Source of the DNA: a virus
Direction: 5' to 3' (one strand)
Length of the DNA: 64,000 nt
IMG/VR virus record: IMGVR_UViG_3300032257_000479
Location: 96,001-160,000 of that record
Below, piece by piece: positions 1 to 45,437 of the stretch (position 1 is the stretch's first letter; each line of letters starts with the position of its first letter). The translations under genes and the position numbers were made by a program. The notes under the pieces are model-generated. The model was not told the DNA's origin and made no database searches. It was given only the letters and a program-made list of their open reading frames with translations.

Positions 1-1894
1 GGTTTATCATTTTTTTAACATTAGTTGATGCAATCCTGCTATCATTGATATCTGGTTGCGTGTTATTTATCGGCACATTTGGTTGATTAACAGGTTGCTG
101 CATATCAGGAGCAGGTTGCTGCATATTATTATCTACAATATTTGGCAACTTAGGGGCCGGAACATTCTGTCCGATATCCATGTTCATTGCTCCCTCAAGA
201 GCCTTCATTGCTGCTGTTGCAGTTCTCTCTCCAATCTCGAACGCCGCTGTATCTCCGCCGTATCTATTTTTGGCATATTCAAATGCCAAATGGATATCAG
301 CAAAACCCTTACTATTGTTTTTCTTAGGGTTACTCTTTCTTCCTTGAGACTTCAGTTTTGATTCTTGATATTCATCAACAAGAACAAGCCATTCTGTTCC
401 TCTGTTTACTACAGGGATTGTTGATTGATCATCTGGGTTTACCATTGTTTCTGGGGTTGCAAATCCTGGTCTAGTTGTGGTTTGACCGGCTCCCATGTTT
501 TCTGTATTTGAAAATTTTGGACCAATAGTAATAGTATGGTATCCGCCAAGTTCAACTTGACCATGACCTCTCATTCTATCTATGTCGCCTCTAAGCATTC
601 TTAATGCAGCAATACTTGTTGGATTTGAATATGGGTCATTCTGGTCTCCCATTATTGCTTTTTTGGCTTTATTGCTTATTGACCATCTACCCATGTTTCC
701 TGAACCTGCTTTTTGATCTTTCTGCTCTTCTCTCATTTTTGGAGCTGCAACGCCTTGAGTTCCTCTTAGCATACTAGGGTTTATTATTTGTTCAACAATA
801 GCTTTTGATAATGGGGCCTCGTCTCCAGATTTTCTATTTTTCGCGAAAAAAGTTCCATCATCTGCAAGCATAAACTGCCAAAGAGTATTATCTTTTCTTG
901 CATCAAGAATGCTCTGGTTTTGATTTTCAATATGATTAATAATATCAGGGTTTTTCTCTTTGCCAGTATTTCTTATCTGTCTAGCATTTTGAACCCTTGA
1001 CCCTTGAGGGCCATCCGGTAATATAATATTAGTCGAGTTTGGCCTAAGACCGCCTCGACCGCCTGATATCCCTATTCCATGACCAACAAAAAACTTCTCC
1101 ATATTAGTGCCTGATTGATGACCAAGAAAGCTCATTAAGCCATCATCTCTCTTATAGAAATTGTTATAATTATTTACCTTTGATTGAGAATCAGTGTCAC
1201 CTTCTTCGGCTTCGCTTTGAGAATCAATATTCTCAAGCTGTCCTTTGCCGCCGCCAGATTCAGAATTGGTATCGATAAACAGACCAAACCCGCCAGACTG
1301 AGTTGGCGAAATAACAACAGGGCCAAATCCGATTGTCTTTGTTCTTGCCAATTCAGGATTTGTGATCGTACTAACTTTTGCGCTCTGACTAGCTCCAACA
1401 TCTTGTATATCTTCTCCAAACTGATCCTTCCAAGCATAAGCATGAAAACTTAACCAAAAATCAGTTCCTATTTGTTTGTCATCTTCTTTGTCATTAGATG
1501 TCAAAACAATATTGTTCTTTTTAGCAAAATCCAATGTCTTCTGCTGTTCAGGAGAAAGCTCTGATCCGTCAGGTAAATCATCCCCAATGAAGTTTGGAGC
1601 AAATGCGGTAAATATCATTCCCTTGAACGCTGTCAAAGTTTGATCTGTTGCTTTGTTTTTTGCGAACTGAGAAAAACTGTCTTTAAAAGTAGATCTTTGG
1701 TTAGATATCTGCGCAACCATATCTGATGGCAACTTAGAATTAGCAAAACTTCCATCTTGATACATTTGCCACTGAAGACCTCTTTCGGAAAGCTGTCCAC
1801 CCATCCCTGACCACATACCCATATCTGCTTGTTTGGCTAGGCCTGCCTGCTTTACAAGGTTTCTGTATAATGATTTTAAATTCTTATTATTCAT
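1..1894 (-). CDS. Large hypothetical head-region protein, 3' end runs off the window (>=631 aa; absent from the ORF track)
   Basis: Hand translation from ATG 1894 (MNNKNLKSLYRNLVKQAGLAKQADMG...), 3 nt after the stop of the upstream gene. Frame is open to position 1 in the stretches read. Q/P/N-rich distal end and KQA motifs like its neighbours. Confidence 0.85.
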   Translation of the reverse strand, partial: MNNKNLKSLYRNLVKQAGLAKQADMGMWSGMGGQLSERGLQWQMYQDGSFANSKLPSDMVAQISNQRSTFKDSFSQFAKNKATDQTLTAFKGMIFTAFAPNFIGDDLPDGSELSPEQQKTLDFAKKNNIVLTSNDKEDDKQIGTDFWLSFHAYAWKDQFGEDIQDVGASQSAKVSTITNPELARTKTIGFGPVVISPTQSGGFGLFIDTNSESGGGKGQLENIDSQSEAEEGDTDSQSKVNNYNNFYKRDDGLMSFLGHQSGTNMEKFFVGHGIGISGGRGGLRPNSTNIILPDGPQGSRVQNARQIRNTGKEKNPDIINHIENQNQSILDARKDNTLWQFMLADDGTFFAKNRKSGDEAPLSKAIVEQIINPSMLRGTQGVAAPKMREEQKDQKAGSGNMGRWSISNKAKKAIMGDQNDPYSNPTSIAALRMLRGDIDRMRGHGQVELGGYHTITIGPKFSNTENMGAGQTTTRPGFATPETMVNPDDQSTIPVVNRGTEWLVLVDEYQESKLKSQGRKSNPKKNNSKGFADIHLAFEYAKNRYGGDTAAFEIGERTATAAMKALEGAMNMDIGQNVPAPKLPNIVDNNMQQPAPDMQQPVNQPNVPINNTQPDINDSRIASTNVKKMIN

Positions 1895-5093: not shown

Positions 5094-6617
5094 TTATATT
5101 TTTTTTTTTGAATCAGAAGATGCTGCAACATCCACATCTAAAGCTGTTTGTGATTGACCATTAAGTCCAATCATGTCTTCTTCGAATGGGCTCATTTCAT
5201 CTACAGCCATATCATATGTCAACAATAAAAGTGGTTGGCCATATTTTTTTGACATGTTTTCAGCTATTTGAACTGCCTCATTCTTATCTTTTGCATCTAT
5301 CTTTTGCAGTTCTTTCCCTGAATTAAGATCCTGAACAACATAAATTATTTTAGGTTCAATATCATCTGATAATTGAGCTGTCTTTATTTGTTTTTTTGCT
5401 TTCGCCTCTTTCGCCCAATTAAAGGGTTCAGAAGTATCATTGAACTCTTTGAGCTTATCGGTATTGTTTGCTCTCATGTGTTGCATGCGCGCTTCTGTTG
5501 ATCTAAACTCTGGCAAGTAATTGCGACGACGTTCGCCTGGCTTCAATTGATAGTTGTTGGTTGGAGGCATCCATTTGTCTACCTCAAATCTCTTCTCAAT
5601 ATATCCGCCAACATATTCTCCGTCTGAGTTTCTGTATGGACGGCTATATTTGTCCATAACATTTCCTCTCCAGACAGCTTCGTAATCGATGAATAAGGAA
5701 TCATCCATCTTGATTCCCCAACCCTTGTTTCTTTCATAGATATGCCAGTCATTAATTAATTGACCAGTAAATGCGTCTACCCTATTCCCTTCAGGTCCAT
5801 GCATAATAACATTTTCCATGCCTTTGTGCTGAGCTTCTTTCTTTAGGTTAAAAGGCTTGCTAGATGCTTGCTTAGTCTTATTGTATTGAGCAAGACTTTT
5901 TGCTAATCTACGAAGAACCTCGTTTGATTCTGCAACAACATGTTCAACTCCAGTAATCATAGCTTCTCCTTTATCGCTTTGAGGCATAACTTCAAACATT
6001 TTCATAGCTAGCTCTGTTCTTTTTTGCTTATCGTCAATTCTCATCGCATCAAGGTACTCTTGAATGGAATCTTTAATTACCTGCTTTGGGTTTGGTCCAA
6101 CAACTCCATCGTCGCTTATGGTTGGATCATTGTCAACCATTTCTGTAAGCTCCATTATTGTTGAATCTATATTCTCTGAATCTAGTAAATTCTCTTCAAG
6201 ATAATTAAACAAATCAAATCCTGATTCAAAGTTCTGAGATTGCTGCTCTGCCATTGGGTCTACCATTGGGTCAGACATCGGTGCTGCAGGCGGCATCGGT
6301 TCTGCCATTGGGTCTTGCCCCATTGGATCAATCCCCATTTGGGCTTCTTTTAGTAAATTAAAATAAGGAACAGTAGAGGCTGCAGGCATAAGAGAGTTAG
6401 CCTCTTCTGTTGCGTCATGTATTGCATCATTAACATTAAACAATGCTCCCATTTGTTCTTTTCCTAATTGCATTTGAGCAAGCATTCTTGCTCTAAACTC
6501 CTCTTGTTCATGAGGAGTCATGCCCTCTGGCATTTGCCCCATAGAATTATCTACAATGCTATCTAAAGCATCTTCATTTTGTTGCAAATAATTTGTGGCA
6601 TTTGGAGGTAAGGACAT
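5094..6617 (-). CDS. Putative head/internal protein with repeated FNL-x-KEAQ / KTAQ motifs
   Basis: 507 aa. DPM-rich low-complexity segment, conserved-looking W/Y-rich core, stop directly after an A11 run. Confidence 0.8.
   Translation of the reverse strand: MSLPPNATNYLQQNEDALDSIVDNSMGQMPEGMTPHEQEEFRARMLAQMQLGKEQMGALFNVNDAIHDATEEANSLMPAASTVPYFNLLKEAQMGIDPMGQDPMAEPMPPAAPMSDPMVDPMAEQQSQNFESGFDLFNYLEENLLDSENIDSTIMELTEMVDNDPTISDDGVVGPNPKQVIKDSIQEYLDAMRIDDKQKRTELAMKMFEVMPQSDKGEAMITGVEHVVAESNEVLRRLAKSLAQYNKTKQASSKPFNLKKEAQHKGMENVIMHGPEGNRVDAFTGQLINDWHIYERNKGWGIKMDDSLFIDYEAVWRGNVMDKYSRPYRNSDGEYVGGYIEKRFEVDKWMPPTNNYQLKPGERRRNYLPEFRSTEARMQHMRANNTDKLKEFNDTSEPFNWAKEAKAKKQIKTAQLSDDIEPKIIYVVQDLNSGKELQKIDAKDKNEAVQIAENMSKKYGQPLLLLTYDMAVDEMSPFEEDMIGLNGQSQTALDVDVAASSDSKKKI

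Positions 6618-37579: not shown

Positions 37580-37582
<3 letters not shown>
37520..37582. repeat. 19-bp perfect direct repeat ATGATCGATAAGTGAATTA (37520-37538, 37564-37582)
   Basis: Read directly; 44-bp period; the second copy overlaps the ligA stop. Confidence 0.9.
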
Positions 37583-39577
<1,995 letters not shown>

Positions 39578-40237
39578 TTACTCAGGAAAGAACCTAAACG
39601 ATGGTTTTATTCCCAATTCTCTGTAGAATACAGCTACGCTGTCATAAACAGCCTTCCTTATTTCATCATATCCAACAGGTAAATGTTTTTTAACAAGAAC
39701 TGTTGAAGTTTTTATGTATCTCATATCCAGTTTGTATTTTACAAAATCTTCATCATTTACTTTAGATGGATGAACTCCACAAAGAATAACTATCTCGCTG
39801 GTATCAGAAAAGAAGGATAATGCTCCGAGAGCAATCTTTTCAGGCTGGTCAATAACAAGTAAATCTGTTTGTTTGAAGAAGTTTTTAACTCTTCCGTACA
39901 ATTCATTTAGTTCTAAACTTTCTTTTCCAGTAATAACTGAATCGTTGTATACAGGAAATACTTTAGGATAAAACTCAGCTTTAGGATTTAAATGTGATAC
40001 ATTTTCATCAAAACGAGACTGTTCAAAATCTACAGACATAAATCTATCTACATTGTTGTGCAAGAAAGCTGATGTCTTGGGAGAAGATCCTAAAACAAGG
40101 ACAGAGCCTGGCTTGAAAGAGTTTTCTATTCCTTTTACGATACCTAAATTAGATTCTTTCTTAAGACGATCAATAGCATGAGCTATTTTTGTTCCTCTTG
40201 AATCGTTTGCTATAGCCATAGTATTATTTACCTCCAA
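39578..40237 (-). CDS. Hypothetical protein, possible degenerate methyltransferase fold
   Basis: SVLVLGS...T..FL and DLLVID. Likely start ATG 40219 after GGAGG. Confidence 0.6.
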   Translation of the reverse strand: MEVNNTMAIANDSRGTKIAHAIDRLKKESNLGIVKGIENSFKPGSVLVLGSSPKTSAFLHNNVDRFMSVDFEQSRFDENVSHLNPKAEFYPKVFPVYNDSVITGKESLELNELYGRVKNFFKQTDLLVIDQPEKIALGALSFFSDTSEIVILCGVHPSKVNDEDFVKYKLDMRYIKTSTVLVKKHLPVGYDEIRKAVYDSVAVFYRELGIKPSFRFFPE

Positions 40238-40324
40238 AAATACATTTTGCTGTAATCAAATACTTATTTGAACAGGCAGAGTCCTTTGTTTTGACACTTT
40301 TTTGATGTACCTTGGCATTGGGGA

Positions 40325-41020
40325 AAGGCTGTATTTCTATTGCTCTTTATTATATTTCATATATAATGGGCTTTTAATGCTGCGGTCTATCGACCTTGCA
40401 TTCGATACAAACCTCTGCGAGGTCCGTATCGTATTATTTTTTATTCTTTTCTTTTTTATCTTATCTGGGCTTAATGTTTATGCACAAGGACACTTTTCAG
40501 CCAAATGTTGTCTTGTTTGATAAACAGTAGAACATAGGCTGCTCCGCATAGTAGGTACTAATATAGAATTAGAAAATACTATGGCGTTGCTGGGTTTGAT
40601 TTTTTAAGGTCGGGTTCACCCAGCTTTCAGCCAGTCACCGCTTCGATTCGCTTAGATACAAGATGAAAAGTGTTCAAAAGCCCTGTAAATAGCTATCTCC
40701 TGCTAAAGGAGAAAGAGAGATGAGTCATGATGCTTCCTTTGACTCATACCATGTATATCCGAAGATATGATGTATTTTGTCGCTTAATACAAACGCTCGA
40801 CGTAAAGCAACCGAGAATGCTACCCAATTTATGCTTCGTATACAAAGGTTGCGGCCCACCTATTTCCTTCTCGCATTCATGGAGTAAGCTAAGCAATAGC
40901 AAACCATGAACTATGTCACTAGGGTACATCGTTCCGTTTCTCTTTATAAATGTACTCTTACACGAAAAAACCGCCTCCAGGTTACACATTAGGAGAGCGG
41001 CAAGGATTAATTCCTTGAAA
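40325..41020 (+). ncRNA. Candidate large structured non-coding RNA (~700 nt)
   Basis: At least 12 helices including nested long-range stems; wobble pairs are G-U on the + strand; no credible ORF. Ends are approximate. Confidence 0.55.
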
Positions 41021-41560
41021 ACAAATGCAAGTTAGTGGGCTTAAAAATAAAGCATTGTTTTCTTATATCTATTATTCGTCATATTGGTCACTGTTAAAAG
41101 AAGCGTACACGAAAAACCCTAAAACCTGCAATCTATTAATTATAATTATAAAGCATAATAAGAATTGGGCATATTGGGAATTTCTAAAAATATACTGCCA
41201 AAATATAGCATAAATCAATCGAATATTGAGCTATTTGATACTTATTGGGTAAATAGTGCTAGATTTTAGAAAACAACCCCTAGTTAATACTTACTTTAAA
41301 ATACGTTATTAGTATATCTAGATTCCAGCTAAAATATAGAGCTTTATGGCCATATCTAGCAGATTTTGTGTCAAATCAGCCTTAATTGAGCGATTTTCTA
41401 ACTTCATTTCTTGTTTTTCTTCTAAAATCCGGCAAAATAAGCTATACTTAAGTCATTTTATTAATTATAATAAATAAACCCCATTTAAATGCTTTAAACA
41501 GGGTTTATCGATTTGAATGCTCAATATATGGCTAATAATGGGTATTTTTTACTGGTTATT
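41020..41560. other. Very AT-rich non-coding tract (possible origin or regulatory region)
   Basis: No credible ORF, repeated AAAATATA, inverted repeat ATAAACCC/GGGTTTAT at 41474-41508. Confidence 0.35.
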
Positions 41561-41567
41561 AAATACT

Positions 41568-42071
41568 TTAATGATTCTTACTGATAAAATTATGATAAAA
41601 TATCTGGAAGGGCTCATCTTCGCTTAAAACATCTATTGGAGAAACAGAATTAATAAACCAACCGAAAAGGCCAGGACTATATAAAGACTCTACAACAACA
41701 ACCGAGTTCGAGTCAGCATATTTAGCGTCAATTATGGCTTCATTTACAATGTAGCAGAAATCATTTTCTATGACACCCTTATGCCCCTTGTTCATTTTGC
41801 TTGCTCTATACATTACACATGGGACATTTTTACCAATATTGTTATTGATCCAAATAAAGCCTTCAGCCGCTGCCGCTTCATCTAATATTATAGACTCTAA
41901 TTGTCCTAGCTTATTTGGTTTTTCTTTCGATAAAATGAAATGAACATTTATTCCACATATATTGAACACTTTTTCCCGCGGAGAAAAAAGGCTCAAAGAC
42001 AGCTTCCATTTATCTAATATTGATAGTTTGTTATTCAATAGAATTCGCCACAACAATGGAAACCTGAACAT
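41568..42071 (-). CDS. Hypothetical protein
   Basis: 167 aa, contains IILDEAA. Confidence 0.6.
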   Translation of the reverse strand: MFRFPLLWRILLNNKLSILDKWKLSLSLFSPREKVFNICGINVHFILSKEKPNKLGQLESIILDEAAAAEGFIWINNNIGKNVPCVMYRASKMNKGHKGVIENDFCYIVNEAIIDAKYADSNSVVVVESLYSPGLFGWFINSVSPIDVLSEDEPFQIFYHNFISKNH

Positions 42072-43117: not shown

Positions 43118-44014
43118 TCAGTGAGTAAAGTTCTGACCCTTCACCTCAGGAACATTATGGAGACAAGATTCCCCATATTTTTCTTTTACATGATCTATCA
43201 TGGTTCCGCTGTGACTTGTCACCAAGAATTGTTTGTCAGGAAATGATTCAATGAGCTTATCTATCATTTTTGCATGTCTTTCAAAATAAACATGCATTTC
43301 TATATTGTCAACAAGTATAATGTTTGCCTGATTTATTATAGATGGATCACATAACTGTCTAAGAAGGGTCGCTATTTTTCGCTCTCCATCAGACATGCTT
43401 TTGAAGTGAACTTTCGAATCACCCTTATCTATAACAACATCTTGATAAAAATCTACACGTTCCCCAACTCCTTCTCCATCAGAATCCTCTCCCTCAAAAG
43501 TTGAAACAGAAATACCTAGCTCTACATCGTAACCATAAACAATGCGAGCCATATCAAGAAATAGTTCTGCTCCATCAGCAGGCAATTGAAATTTTTGCCT
43601 ATTTATTTGGTGATCAGCATCAACAAAAACGCATACATTTCTGTCGTTGACTTCGTTTTCAACAACACCATCAGGTTCGTGGTCTGAGTTTATTCTCGCA
43701 ACCTTTTCGTTTCCATCGTCGTCAACAAAGATTGCTTCAACCTTCATTGGGTTATCGTTTATCATAAAATGAGGTAAATGCGGGTCATAATCTGGATGAA
43801 AAATAAGCTTCCTGAATAGGAGATCATTCTTTCTATTCTTTAGCCAACCTATATTTCCAATAAGCCTCATCGCATGCAAGTTTGTTGACTTGCCGCATCC
43901 ATTCGGTCCAAAAAATATTGATATTGGATTTATGTCTCCATTGTCATTCGTAAAATTGAATGTGGCTTCTTTGTATCCGGTATAATTAGATAAATATAAT
44001 TGTTTCAGTTTCAT
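43118..44014 (-). CDS. Stand-alone ABC-type (AAA_21/SMC-like) ATPase
   Basis: L.L.NY.GY, GPNGCGKS, MSDGE signature, LVDNIEMH Walker B, QF.VTSHS H-loop. Confidence 0.85.
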   Translation of the reverse strand: MKLKQLYLSNYTGYKEATFNFTNDNGDINPISIFFGPNGCGKSTNLHAMRLIGNIGWLKNRKNDLLFRKLIFHPDYDPHLPHFMINDNPMKVEAIFVDDDGNEKVARINSDHEPDGVVENEVNDRNVCVFVDADHQINRQKFQLPADGAELFLDMARIVYGYDVELGISVSTFEGEDSDGEGVGERVDFYQDVVIDKGDSKVHFKSMSDGERKIATLLRQLCDPSIINQANIILVDNIEMHVYFERHAKMIDKLIESFPDKQFLVTSHSGTMIDHVKEKYGESCLHNVPEVKGQNFTH

Positions 44015-44064
44015 TGATAATCCTTAAAGCATAATGCTATAGGGATTATCGACAAAAAAGCTAA

Positions 44065-44466
44065 TCAAGAAGAGATTGACCAGTTACCGGATTCATCTTG
44101 CCCCCAATATTTCCAGGCAAAAGGAATGTAATGCACGTTAGAAAAACCAGCATCCTCAAGAATACCTTTCATTATCAATCCGCCAACATTGTTTAAAGAA
44201 TGTATAACAATGGTTTTGTCGGAATAACTTTTAATTGTAGAAAGATGGCGAGCAACGGTTCTTCCGTCCTCTTCGTCATCATTTAACTGATTGTTTGTTT
44301 CCCAATTTAAATCATGATCCAAAAATACAACATCATAATCATCATTATTGTCTAAAAGATCAATAGCTTCTTGAGCGGTAAACGCATTGTCCACATGACA
44401 ACCTATAGCGTTTGGCCTAAATACATTGTGCCTATTTTGATCATCATCTAAAAATAAAACTTTCAT
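44065..44466 (-). CDS. Cyclic-phosphate processing receiver (cREC-like) domain protein
   Basis: VLFLDD...R, DVVFLDHDL, G..VA, IVIHS.N..G..M. Confidence 0.8.
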   Translation of the reverse strand: MKVLFLDDDQNRHNVFRPNAIGCHVDNAFTAQEAIDLLDNNDDYDVVFLDHDLNWETNNQLNDDEEDGRTVARHLSTIKSYSDKTIVIHSLNNVGGLIMKGILEDAGFSNVHYIPFAWKYWGQDESGNWSISS

Positions 44467-45224
44467 AACAGCCTTTCTTTCAAAAAATCAACAACATCAT
44501 TTGCGATTATCTCGTAATACAATTCATCAACCGCCTCTTGATTTAAGTGTTCTTGCAAATTATTATTTTCTATAGCAAATAATAATTCCTTGTCCAGCCT
44601 TTCTACTTCTTTTTCAACAAGATCAAAAGATATTTTTCCCTCTCTTATATCAACAAGAAGGTCTGCTTCTGGCCTAGGAAAAGTCATAGATCCAGTTTTT
44701 GCTAATTCGATACCTTGACTCAAGAGTCGAACTGCGTGATATGCATTTTTTACGGAGTATCCATATTTTTTGTAAGAATCTTTTCTTTTGGCTCCAACAA
44801 CTCTTTTGCTGTGATAAATATCTCCTGTCTCCTTGTTCTTTGTCTTTAACTGAGCTTTTAACCACTCTGACATAGCAAATCCTGAAAAAGGCATTAGCTG
44901 AGACTTTGTCACAAACAAATTTTTGTTATCTATGATTTTTCTTCCATTTTCTGAGCATGTTAAAACATGAGATTCAGGAGCAAAAAGGATCTCAAAAGTA
45001 TTGGGGGTTCCCTTTACCAGTTGATTAAGAAACTTTACAAGTCCCCAGATCACAACATCATTAACCTTATCTTCGTGTTGTTCAAATCTTCTTCTGCCAA
45101 GAAAGCAGTTTGCTGGCTCAACAACAAAACCTCTTAAGTCATCATCAGATGATGGAGTAGAGCACCCATACAGCCTGCTGCCTGTTCGGATAAGTAAGTC
45201 TGGTTTTTCCCAAAAGTTTTCCAT
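44463..45224 (-). CDS. RlaP/YcgL-type Pol-beta superfamily nucleotidyltransferase
   Basis: GSRLYG..TP.SD.DLRG, G.PN..E.LF, G.KR......GY..K.AYHA.RLL..G.E. Start moved to ATG 45224 because the track extension is the tRNA. Confidence 0.88.
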   Translation of the reverse strand: MENFWEKPDLLIRTGSRLYGCSTPSSDDDLRGFVVEPANCFLGRRRFEQHEDKVNDVVIWGLVKFLNQLVKGTPNTFEILFAPESHVLTCSENGRKIIDNKNLFVTKSQLMPFSGFAMSEWLKAQLKTKNKETGDIYHSKRVVGAKRKDSYKKYGYSVKNAYHAVRLLSQGIELAKTGSMTFPRPEADLLVDIREGKISFDLVEKEVERLDKELLFAIENNNLQEHLNQEAVDELYYEIIANDVVDFLKERLL

Positions 45225-45226
45225 AA

Positions 45227-45300
45227 TTCCCCGCAGTGGATTTGAACCACTAGCCTTCGATCCCAAAAAATCAATGCTCTTCCAATTGAGCTAACGGGGA
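45227..45300 (-). tRNA. tRNA (Gln-like, U1:A72) with an 8-nt anticodon loop UUUUUGGG; no encoded CCA
   Basis: TCCCCGT/GCGGGGA acceptor, GCTC-AATTGGAA-GAGC D arm, TTGAT/ATCGA anticodon stem, AGTGG-TTCAAAT-CCACT T arm. Confidence 0.88.
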
Positions 45301-45437
45301 ACTAGGTAGCCATAACTGTATAATGCCTTTTCTTCGCGACCTACCAATAGAAGCAAAAAGGCAAATATGTACTACCTAGATTTATTTATTTTCGACCAAT
45401 TATAGGCCTCATGAAATGTAAACACACGTGAATTCTT

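What the first reader, a model, noticed from the sequence alone, without database searches (positions are those of the whole stretch)
40325..41020. Candidate novel ~700-nt highly structured ncRNA, opposite in strand to its neighbours
Seen helices: 40368-75/40676-83 (8 bp, long range) enclosing 40488-99/40664-75 (12 bp); 40392-400/40416-24; 40498-502/40537-41; 40547-53/40577-83; 40589-95/40618-24; 40696-701/40707-12; 40720-27/40740-47; 40807-12/40847-52; 40876-82/40904-10; 40921-29/40950-58; 40971-78/40992-41000; 41001-06/41012-17. Crossing pairings (40403-08/40426-31 and 40462-70/40650-58) suggest pseudoknots or alternative folds. The wobble positions I checked are G-U on + and would be A-C on -, which gives the strand. 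It sits in the largest gap of a dense genome. I see no tmRNA, RNase P, or group I/II hallmark. Established: phages carry large ncRNAs such as GOLLD and ROOL. Inference: a member of such a class or a new one.
Basis: partly seen in the sequence, partly recalled or inferred. Interest (0 to 1): 0.8.

Follow-up and report, generated by a model that had tools for sequence, protein, structure and literature searches.

The report
New large structured RNA, huge phages
The gene-free gap holds a real, conserved, pseudoknotted RNA element of about 0.77 kb that matches no known RNA family, lies on the same strand as its neighbours (not the opposite one), and sits just upstream of the DNA ligase gene in a small clade of roughly 470-490 kb marine phages.

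Summary
The structure is real. The strand call is wrong. Homologous non-coding blocks occur in five lineages of huge phage contigs, always upstream of a DNA ligase gene on the same strand. Base pairs covary: 40 of 129 pairs change on both sides against 23.7 in shuffles (0/500), and 34 of 75 in an 8-sequence core alignment. Intervals between invariant anchors fold on their own into the same hairpins with different sequences. A 10-12 bp pseudoknot (40675-40664 with 40499-40488) has both-side changes at five positions.

Four things place the RNA on the minus strand, co-oriented with its neighbours:
- wobble pairs: 18 G.U against 2 A.C in strand-neutral pairs;
- consensus folding energy: -107 against -81 kcal/mol;
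- a cUUCGg loop replaced by GUAA in another lineage;
- a hairpin plus U-run.

The element runs from about 41132 to about 40368, beyond the reported 40325-41020. No Rfam family matches the window or any homolog, and it is not coding. The RNA core is better conserved than the flanking genes (91.8% against 84% and about 61%).

I read it as a new family of large structured phage ncRNA. Its function is unknown. A giant cis-acting leader of the ligase operon is the main rival. The scan had noted this same stretch once before, from an overlapping window; nothing was noted on other DNA.

The parts
40368..41132 (-). Whole RNA element as inferred: about 765 nt, from the inferred 5' end to the end of the last covarying helix. 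Conserved motifs continue to about 40280.
   Evidence: Alignments A1, A3, A5 and A10, covariation, helix coordinates checked. Both ends are inferred, not measured.
41139..41144 (-). Candidate -10 hexamer (TATAAT; a second copy at 41145-41150) for the RNA
   Evidence: It lies 25 nt before the conserved UUCGUGUAC. L007 and L008 have TAGTAT 25 and 24 nt before the same motif. Inference only.
41105..41113 (-). Conserved 5' motif UUCGUGUAC; a second copy UUCGUGUA lies at 40959-40966
   Evidence: Invariant in the window group, L007 and L008. These are the only two copies in the window.
40854..41040 (-). 5' domain closed by P1 (41040-41034 with 40860-40854). It contains P2a (41016-41012/41006-41002), P2, and P3/P4 (P4 = 40910-40904/40882-40876).
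   Evidence: P1 keeps pairing through U.G or C-G changes; in L014 it reads UCCAUUU/GGGUGGG. P4 folds independently in every lineage with different sequence. This domain is much reduced in L017/L018.
40964..41001 (-). P2: 9-10 bp GC-rich hairpin (41001-40992/40978-40970) followed by a U-run; terminator-like, and internal to P1
   Evidence: Four pairs change on both sides. The U-run is kept in the window group, L007 and L008; the hairpin is weak in L014 and absent in L017/L018.
40696..40847 (-). Central hairpins: P5 (40847-43/40838-34), P6 (40815-10/40801-796), P7 (40791-86/40776-71), P8 (40768-64/40759-55, cUUCGg loop), P9 (40747-40/40727-20), P10 (40712-08/40700-696)
   Evidence: P7 differs at three pairs, all compensated, between the window and L002. 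The P8 loop is UUCG, UACGC, UGCGC or GUAA in different lineages.
40488..40694 (-). Universal core: P11 (40687-81/40663-57), pseudoknot PK (40675-64 with 40499-488), P13 (40624-18/40595-89) with a conserved 22-nt loop, P14 (40586-77/40553-45), invariant CAGCC (40541-37) facing two invariant GGCUGA copies (40632-28 and 40502-498), P16 (40535-31/40509-05)
   Evidence: Conserved in all lineages including L017/L018. PK duplex is 10-12 bp in each lineage. P11, P13, P14 and P16 covary.
40432..40462 (-). A-rich (purine-rich) single-stranded linker of about 30 nt
   Evidence: Present at the same place in every lineage with different sequence: AAG/AAA repeats in the window, AGA/GAA in L007, AAAAAC repeats in L017.
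40377..40431 (-). 3' hairpins P17 (40431-19/40415-03) and P18 (40401-398/40380-377 and 40395-92/40387-84). P18 has a GA/GA internal loop and a GAA loop in most lineages.
   Evidence: P17 is GACCUC/GAGGUC in L007 and GAGAUC/GAUCUC in L008. The P18 outer and inner stems differ in every lineage.
40304..40319 (-). Conserved 3' motif AAUGCCAAGGUACAUC (consensus CAAUGNNAAGGUNNAUC), either the 3' part of the element or part of the leader of the next gene
   Evidence: Found in all lineages including L017/L018. It occurs only once in the window, so it is not a general promoter motif.
40349..40377 (-). Sigma-70-like promoter match (TTAAAA-17-TATAAT) just after P18; candidate promoter of the downstream operon
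   Evidence: consensus scan only; 4 matches found against 9.4 expected in the region, so weak.
39578..40219 (-). Downstream gene: 213-aa protein with a class I SAM-methyltransferase fold (true ATG at 40219 after GGAGG)
   Evidence: No Pfam, PHROG or PADLOC hit. AF2 pLDDT 88. Foldseek top hits are COMT, TrmR and TrmK, TM about 0.5. The gene is absent in L017/L018.
37580..39526 (-). NAD-dependent DNA ligase gene, the constant downstream partner of the RNA
   Evidence: Pfam. A ligase follows the RNA in every lineage: NAD type in L002, L003, L017 and L018; ATP type in L004, L007, L008 and L013.
41178..41441 (.). Upstream spacer with five copies of a GC-N3-4-ATTTT-R-G motif in both orientations
   Evidence: Read. 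Not enriched elsewhere in the window. Similar triple arrays (GAGATTTTG, CCGGATTTT) lie upstream in L007 and L008.
41473..41509 (-). Terminator-like hairpin plus T-run ending the upstream operon

Best explanation
The gap encodes a previously undescribed family of large structured non-coding RNA. It is about 765 nt long (window about 41132 to 40368) and lies on the minus strand. It appears to have its own promoter and runs in the same direction as the genes around it.

The RNA has at least 18 helices. A 5' domain closed by a long-range helix (P1) is variable between lineages. A universal core of about 200 nt follows, built around a hairpin (P11) whose loop forms a 10-12 bp pseudoknot with a segment about 165 nt downstream. 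The core also holds a hairpin with a 22-nt invariant loop and two invariant GGCUGA segments that face a single CAGCC. After the core come an A-rich linker and two 3' hairpins.

Shown here: conservation, covariation, strand, non-coding nature, single copy, no match to known families, and constant position upstream of a DNA ligase gene in roughly 470-490 kb marine phages.

Inferred: that it accumulates as a stable RNA. It would then act in trans through its invariant loops and junctions, as a protein-binding scaffold or a self-assembling RNA in the manner of OLE, GOLLD or ROOL. A role tied to nucleic-acid metabolism during infection is a further inference.
For: Homologs:
- Window group: L002, L003 and L006.
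- L007 (487-kb Tara Oceans contig, with identical copies L009-L012), L008 and L014.
- L017 (complete 488-kb genome with terminal repeats) and L018.
- Sources.

Covariation:
- In A5, 40 of 129 pairs change on both sides against 23.7 +/- 2.9 in shuffles (0/500), and 5-15 when partners are slid. 93.9% of cells are paired against about 40% when slid.
- In A10 (8 sequences), 34 of 75 pairs, 0/500, 95.2% paired against 32-43%.
- Anchor-delimited intervals fold alone into the same hairpins in each lineage.
- The pseudoknot duplex is 10-12 bp in all lineages, with both-side changes at five positions.

Strand:
- Consensus folding energy is -146 against -115 kcal/mol and -107 against -81.
- In pairs predicted on both strands there are 18 G.U against 2 A.C.
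- UUCG and GNRA loops swap in P8.

Not coding:
- No ORF under three codes.
- Translated similarity appears in several frames on both strands.
- Substitutions show no 3-periodicity.

Conservation exceeds that of the flanking genes: core 91.8% against 84% (methyltransferase-like gene) and about 61% (ligase and upstream genes) for window against L002. Core G+C is 0.40 against 0.26-0.33 in the flanks.

No Rfam match at the gathering threshold or at E up to 10 or 1, for the window and for five homolog loci. ARAGORN finds no tmRNA. There is one copy in G000 and one in the complete genome G001. Long invariant loop and junction segments persist across lineages whose neighbouring protein is only about 50% identical. 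That pattern is typical of RNP or catalytic RNAs.
Against: Both ends, the promoter and the stability of the RNA are therefore inferred.

No terminator separates the RNA from the next gene, and conserved motifs continue to about 60 nt before its start codon. This fits a leader as well as a separate RNA.

Only five independent lineages exist, and three of the eight aligned sequences are close relatives. The consensus structures were derived from the same alignments on which pairs were counted, and A10 was fitted to the model. Per-sequence folding energies of single hairpins do not separate the strands. The function is unsupported by any direct test.
Confidence: 0.5

Rival explanations
1. It is a giant cis-acting leader. 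The RNA would be the 5' untranslated region of the (methyltransferase-like gene)-ligase operon and would control read-through, translation or stability. Candidate switches are the terminator-like P2 hairpin and the competition of two GGCUGA segments for one CAGCC.
For: It is always directly upstream of the ligase operon and co-oriented with it, with no intervening terminator. The P2 hairpin plus U-run lies about 130 nt after the inferred start. Two invariant GGCUGA copies could pair alternatively with CAGCC. Conserved motifs reach close to the start codon. A pyrimidine stretch at 40849-40844 can pair with the Shine-Dalgarno sequence (helix 7).
Against: A size of about 770 nt and more than 18 helices with a pseudoknot is far beyond known bacterial or phage leaders. 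P2 is weak in L014 and absent in L017/L018. The first downstream gene differs between lineages (methyltransferase-like, or a 65-aa ORF) while the RNA core stays. The anti-SD pairing is pyrimidine against purine with little informative variation. No known aptamer matches. A sigma-70-like promoter match lies between P18 and the next gene.
Confidence: 0.3
2. It is an origin-associated RNA. A transcript would fold into a defined shape to prime or open a replication origin (ColE1 RNA II style). The repeated motifs upstream would act as iterons and the A-rich tract as an unwinding element.
For: It is the largest gap in a dense genome, next to replication genes (ligase, thymidylate synthase nearby). 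There are arrays of 3-5 short repeats upstream in three lineages. An A-rich tract is present in all lineages.
Against: GC skew shows no inflection and there is no gene-strand switch at the locus. The repeat motif differs between lineages and its role is untested. Invariant loops and a conserved pseudoknot across about 200 nt are not needed for a primer. No origin-binding protein gene was identified next to it.
Confidence: 0.07
3. It is a ribozyme or intron-like mobile RNA, for example an ORF-less self-splicing or self-cleaving element.
For: Its size, pseudoknot and invariant junctions are in the range of large ribozymes.
Against: There is no match to group I, group II, RNase P or small-ribozyme models at E up to 10. 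It lies between complete genes with their own starts, not inside a gene. Position is fixed in all lineages and each genome has a single copy, unlike a mobile element.
Confidence: 0.05
4. One reading: the RNA is transcribed from the plus strand, antisense to the neighbouring genes.
For: In the window alone, local hairpins fold slightly better on plus (-56.3 against -51.6 kcal/mol) with more G.U pairs. On plus, the hairpin at 40403-40431 is followed by a T-run.
Against: Consensus folding favours minus by 26-31 kcal/mol. Wobble counts are 18 against 2. P1 in L014 would have four A.C mismatches on plus. UUCG and GUAA tetraloops exist only on minus. P2 plus U-run is on minus.
Confidence: 0.03
5. 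It is a decayed or unusually coded protein gene, or neutral spacer.
For: Gene callers placed 95-118-aa ORFs inside the region in L002 and L010.
Against: These ORFs are not conserved in length. Similarity appears in several frames on both strands, without codon periodicity. Indels are not multiples of three. The region is more conserved than the flanking genes.
Confidence: 0.02

Closest known systems
GOLLD and ROOL RNAs (large ornate RNAs often carried by phages and prophages)
   Same: Length of several hundred nucleotides, many helices plus pseudoknots, phage-borne, function unknown, found as an unusually long gene-free gap.
   Different: No match to either Rfam model. Not next to tRNA clusters. 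Restricted so far to one clade of marine phages of about 470-490 kb. Fixed position upstream of a DNA ligase gene. Self-assembly not tested.
OLE RNA with its partner protein genes
   Same: A large (about 600 nt) RNA embedded in an operon, co-oriented with and immediately upstream of protein genes, with long invariant loops. This is what the present RNA most resembles in genomic arrangement.
   Different: No sequence or model match. The host is a phage, not a Firmicute. The neighbouring genes are different (methyltransferase-like protein, ligase), and the methyltransferase-like gene is missing in two lineages. No membrane-protein partner was seen.
ColE1 RNA II (structured replication primer)
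   Same: A transcript of several hundred nucleotides with defined folding, near replication functions, with an A-rich stretch.
   Different: No skew inflection. Far more conserved loops and a pseudoknot. No antisense RNA I-like partner was detected.
Riboswitch-type or attenuator leaders
   Same: Upstream of and co-oriented with the genes that follow. Contains a terminator-like hairpin and possible alternative pairings.
   Different: Three to eight times larger than known leaders. No known aptamer. The terminator-like hairpin is not universal.

Membership tests
GOLLD RNA (Rfam) | Significant match to the family covariance model | tested here: not met
   No hit at the gathering score over the window, none at E up to 10 over 40150-41650, none at E up to 1 in five homolog loci.
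ROOL RNA (Rfam) | Significant match to the family covariance model | tested here: not met
   no hit.
OLE, HEARO/omega RNA, raiA and other large Rfam RNAs | Match to any of the 4227 Rfam 15 models | tested here: not met
   The only window hit is the tRNA at 45227-45300.
Group I / group II introns | Match to intron models, and insertion inside a host gene with exon continuity | tested here: not met
   No model match. The flanking genes are complete, with their own RBS and ATG conserved in all lineages.
tmRNA / RNase P RNA | tRNA-like domain and tag reading frame (tmRNA); conserved catalytic core (RNase P) | tested here: not met
   ARAGORN finds no tmRNA. No Rfam tmRNA or RNase P match.
Structured non-coding RNA (generic) | Base pairs maintained by compensatory changes beyond controls | tested here: met
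   0 of 500 shuffles reach the observed values, and slid controls are 3-7 times lower; independent folding of each lineage; pseudoknot.
Structured non-coding RNA (generic) | Evidence of transcription and defined ends | not testable with these tools
Promoter and ends are inferred from sequence only.
Structured non-coding RNA (generic) | Not protein-coding | tested here: met
Cis-regulatory leader / riboswitch | Conserved expression platform (terminator or SD sequestration) coupled to a sensor | tested here: inconclusive
   P2 plus U-run is present in four lineages but absent in L017/L018. Alternative GGCUGA/CAGCC pairings are invariant, so they are uninformative. No known aptamer.
Class I SAM-dependent methyltransferase (the 213-aa neighbour) | Rossmann-like methyltransferase fold; glycine-rich motif I; acidic residue after strand 2 | tested here: inconclusive
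   The fold matches COMT, TrmR and TrmK (TM about 0.5, E 2e-6). No Pfam hit. Motif I is LGSS rather than GxGxG, and D64 is nearly invariant. SAM binding was not tested.

The most novel reading that the evidence does not exclude
This is a new class of ornate RNA confined to marine huge phages. Its invariant pseudoknotted core would carry out a defined biochemical task of its own, such as catalysis, self-assembly into a multimer, or specific capture of a host or phage factor. That task would be linked to DNA joining or replication, which would explain why the RNA has stayed next to a ligase gene even where an NAD-type ligase was replaced by an ATP-type one.
Probability: 0.25. Interest if true: 0.9.

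Novelty: new variant of a known kind. Interest (0 to 1): 0.75.

Why it matters
Only a handful of bacterial or phage RNAs above 500 nt with complex conserved folds are known (OLE, GOLLD, ROOL, HEARO, raiA). Each has opened a line of structural or functional work. This one comes with a covariation-supported fold, a well-defined pseudoknotted core of about 200 nt, and a fixed genomic partner, the DNA ligase gene. It also occurs in complete genomes of about 488 kb from Tara Oceans samples. It can therefore be transcribed in vitro, probed, imaged and looked for in existing marine metatranscriptomes. It also shows that huge phages keep about 1 kb of non-coding sequence under stronger constraint than the adjacent enzymes.

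Tried and rejected
Searches that found no relatives:
- blastn of the gap and tblastn of the 213-aa neighbour found nothing among 50,697 phage records.
- The search for related loci with single neighbouring proteins, or with alignment A2, found nothing in viral contigs.
- Three exact patterns found nothing in viral contigs or genome contigs.
- The one genome contigs match (L015, an Allosphingosinicella MAG) shares only the 22-nt pattern inside coding sequence. About 0.5 such matches are expected by chance, so I discarded it.
L002, L007 and L008 records are not held.
- Literature searches found no description of this RNA or of contig MDSV01025388.

Ideas tested and dropped:
- Recoded ORFs.
- A conserved small protein inside the RNA.
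- A pairing of the 3' motif GGUACAUC with GAUGUACC at 40933-40926: it is perfect in the window, but a change in L008 is not compensated and L014 does not pair (read).
- A pairing of the P13 loop CCGACCU with the P17 3' strand: P17 changes in L008 while the loop does not.
- The TATATTTTAGC, GCCGGATTTTAG and ACAAAGGA motifs as genome-wide promoter elements: none is enriched in the window.
- GC-skew inflection at the locus.
- A MAFFT/RNAalifold helix joining 40767-40758 to the Shine-Dalgarno region: not kept in L007.
- Per-hairpin folding energies as a strand test: uninformative.

Full report
**Context.** The window is bases 96001-160000 of a 169.5-kb IMG/VR virus record that CheckV rates 25% complete. 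Genes are dense and almost all lie on the minus strand. The gap between the gene ending at 40219/40237 and the gene starting at 41568 is the largest in the window. The flanking genes are a 213-aa protein of no known family, an NAD-dependent DNA ligase and a GMP-reductase-like gene on one side. On the other side are three small unknown proteins, an ABC/PtuA-like ATPase, a cREC domain protein, an RlaP-type nucleotidyltransferase and a tRNA.

- The stretch 40325-41020 folds better than dinucleotide shuffles on both strands: z -3.7 on plus and -4.7 on minus, with 20 shuffles each.
- No long ORF exists under table 11, TAG=Q or table 4.
- Rfam gives nothing at gathering scores, and nothing related at E up to 10.
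- G+C rises to 0.38-0.42 inside the element, against 0.26-0.33 beside it.

**Homologs.** The 213-aa neighbour has few relatives. Their contigs, and contigs found through an upstream HD-phosphohydrolase gene and through a conserved RNA pattern, gave homologous non-coding blocks in these lineages:
- L002 (467-kb contig), L003 and L006, which are close to the window.
- L007, a 486,890-bp Tara Oceans contig, with identical copies L009-L012.
- L008, from a 130-kb contig.
- L014.
- L017 and L018 from IMG/VR, which are much more divergent. L017 lies in a complete 488,051-bp genome with terminal repeats.

L004, L005 and L013 hold only the 3' end.

For window against L002, the RNA core is 91.8% identical. 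The 213-aa gene is 84% identical, and the ligase and upstream genes about 61%. The core is still 64-65% identical to L007 and L008, where the neighbouring protein is only about 52% identical.

**Structure.**
- RNAalifold on six sequences predicts 129 pairs. 40 of them change on both sides, against 23.7 +/- 2.9 in column shuffles (0 of 500) and 5-15 when partners are slid by 1-3 columns. 93.9% of cells are standard pairs, against about 40% when slid.
- A covariance model of the core (R1) aligned eight sequences. 34 of 75 pairs change on both sides (0 of 500), with 95.2% paired against 32-43% when slid.
- These alignments fed the structure prediction, so I also cut each lineage at invariant anchors and folded each interval alone. 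P4, P5, P8, P9, P14 and P16 come out as the same hairpins with unrelated stem sequences.
- The loop of P11 (40675-40664) pairs with 40499-40488 in every lineage, over 10-12 bp. Loop positions 2, 3, 4, 7 and 8 changed together with their partners. For example, U-A becomes G-C only in L008, and three pairs differ between the window and L017/L018. P11 itself covaries and its strands bracket one strand of this duplex, so the arrangement is a pseudoknot.
- All helix coordinates were re-read from the window.

**Strand.** Comparative data say minus.
- The consensus folding energy is -146 against -115 kcal/mol with four sequences, and -107 against -81 with six.
- Among the 59 pairs predicted on both strands, 18 cells are G.U on minus and 2 are A.C.
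- P1 reads UCCAUUU/GGGUGGG in L014. That is four wobbles on minus and four mismatches on plus.
- The P8 loop is cUUCGg in the window group and GUAA in L014. That swap makes sense only on minus.
- P2 with its U-run is also on minus.
It is A-U, G-C or G.U elsewhere.
- Single-sequence hairpin energies do not discriminate between the strands.

**Extent and anatomy.** Conservation with L007 and L008 starts at UUCGUGUAC (41113-41105). A -10-like hexamer lies 24-25 nt upstream of that motif in all three lineages, so I infer a start near 41132.

The 5' domain is closed by P1 and holds a terminator-like hairpin, P2. It is variable, and is largely missing in L017/L018.

The parts shared by all lineages are:
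- P11 with the pseudoknot.
- P13 with a 22-nt conserved loop.
- P14.
- CAGCC facing two invariant GGCUGA copies.
- P16.
- An A-rich linker.
- P17 and P18. P18 has a GA/GA internal loop and a GAA loop.
- A 3' motif at 40319-40304.

These rest. A sigma-70-like match at 40377-40349 could start the downstream mRNA.

**Not coding.** ORFs called inside the region vary in length between lineages. Translated similarity appears in several frames on both strands. Mismatches are spread evenly over the three codon phases.

**Genomic linkage.** In the window group, L007, L008 and L014, the RNA is followed by the 213-aa gene. A ligase gene comes next wherever the contig reaches that far; L014 ends inside the 213-aa gene. 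In L017 and L018 the 213-aa gene is absent. There the RNA is followed by a 65-aa ORF and then an NAD-dependent ligase. The ligase is NAD-dependent in some lineages and ATP-dependent in others, at the same position. The upstream neighbour varies: a 148-167-aa protein, an HD phosphohydrolase with a small divergent ORF, or a TnpB insertion in L018. The constant feature is therefore RNA followed by a ligase operon on the same strand. The 213-aa protein models confidently (pLDDT 88). It has a COMT/TrmR-like methyltransferase fold with a degenerate motif I.

**What it is.** No Rfam 15 family matches the window or five homolog loci. ARAGORN finds no tmRNA. The literature searches found no description of it. 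One copy is present in G000 and one in the complete genome G001. No representative bacterial or archaeal genome carries the core motif, apart from one chance match. I read it as a new family of large structured phage RNA.

**How it works.** This part is inference. Long invariant loops and junctions, a pseudoknotted core and a possible promoter for the next gene favour a stable RNA acting through binding or assembly (about 0.5). The main rival is a giant cis-acting leader of the ligase operon (0.3). That rival fits the missing terminator, the P2 hairpin and the possible GGCUGA/CAGCC switch. Against it are the size of the element and the loss of P2 in two lineages. An origin-linked RNA is less likely because GC skew does not turn here.

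**Limits.** Only five independent lineages exist. MAFFT misaligns several variable hairpins, so the tool counts understate some helices (P5, P8, the pseudoknot). They may also include a few false ones, such as the helix to the Shine-Dalgarno region.

Noticed in passing
window 41178-41441; L007 2500-2800; L008 5790-6080: Arrays of three to five short repeats lie in the spacer upstream of the RNA in three lineages. In the window the motif is GC-N3-4-ATTTT-R-G in both orientations; in L007 it is GAGATTTTG and in L008 CCGGATTTT. The motif is not found elsewhere in the window. These could be operator or iteron sites.
   Followed up: partly
window 39578-40219: The 213-aa neighbour has no Pfam, PHROG or PADLOC hit but models as a COMT/TrmR-like class I methyltransferase fold. 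Motif I is LGSS instead of GxGxG. It has very few relatives in 1.8 billion representative proteins.
   Followed up: partly
window 37580-39526; L004 958-2019; L007 4743-5807; L008 8088-9149: The ligase gene at the same position after the RNA is NAD-dependent in the window group and in L017/L018, but ATP-dependent in L004, L007, L008 and L013. This is a non-orthologous replacement with position kept.
   Followed up: partly
L018 7443-8606: A TnpB (IS605 OrfB, Cas12f-like) gene is inserted just upstream of the small divergent ORF and the RNA in one phage. Homology to L017 resumes right after it, at L018 8649.
   Followed up: no
L007 2853-3122 (-); L008 about 6160-6400 (-); L017 about 395-611 (-): A small divergent ORF (about 70-89 aa, C-terminus EDVPDEPDP...) starts within about 40 nt of the RNA's 5' motif in three lineages. 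It is absent from the window group and has no Pfam hit.
   Followed up: partly
window 43118-45301; L002 972-3072; L008 779-2940: A block of tRNA, RlaP nucleotidyltransferase, cREC and a PtuA-like ABC ATPase is conserved 1.5-4 kb upstream of the RNA in several lineages. ARAGORN reads the tRNA with a four-base anticodon (tttg).
   Followed up: partly
L004, L005, L006, L013 (first 200-290 nt): Four independent Logan contigs end 200-290 nt upstream of the 213-aa gene, inside the RNA's 3' part or A-rich linker. This suggests a recurrent assembly break there.
   Followed up: no
window 40304-40319: The conserved 3' motif contains an AUG that opens short frames beginning M-x-x-Y-I in all lineages (21, 40, 27 and 5 codons). 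No Shine-Dalgarno sequence precedes it, and L014 has a stop after 5 codons. It is probably RNA-level conservation rather than a peptide.
   Followed up: partly
L015 3034-3055: The single match in 185,579 representative genomes (an Allosphingosinicella MAG) shares only the 22-nt pattern, within coding sequence. I judged it a chance match.
   Followed up: yes
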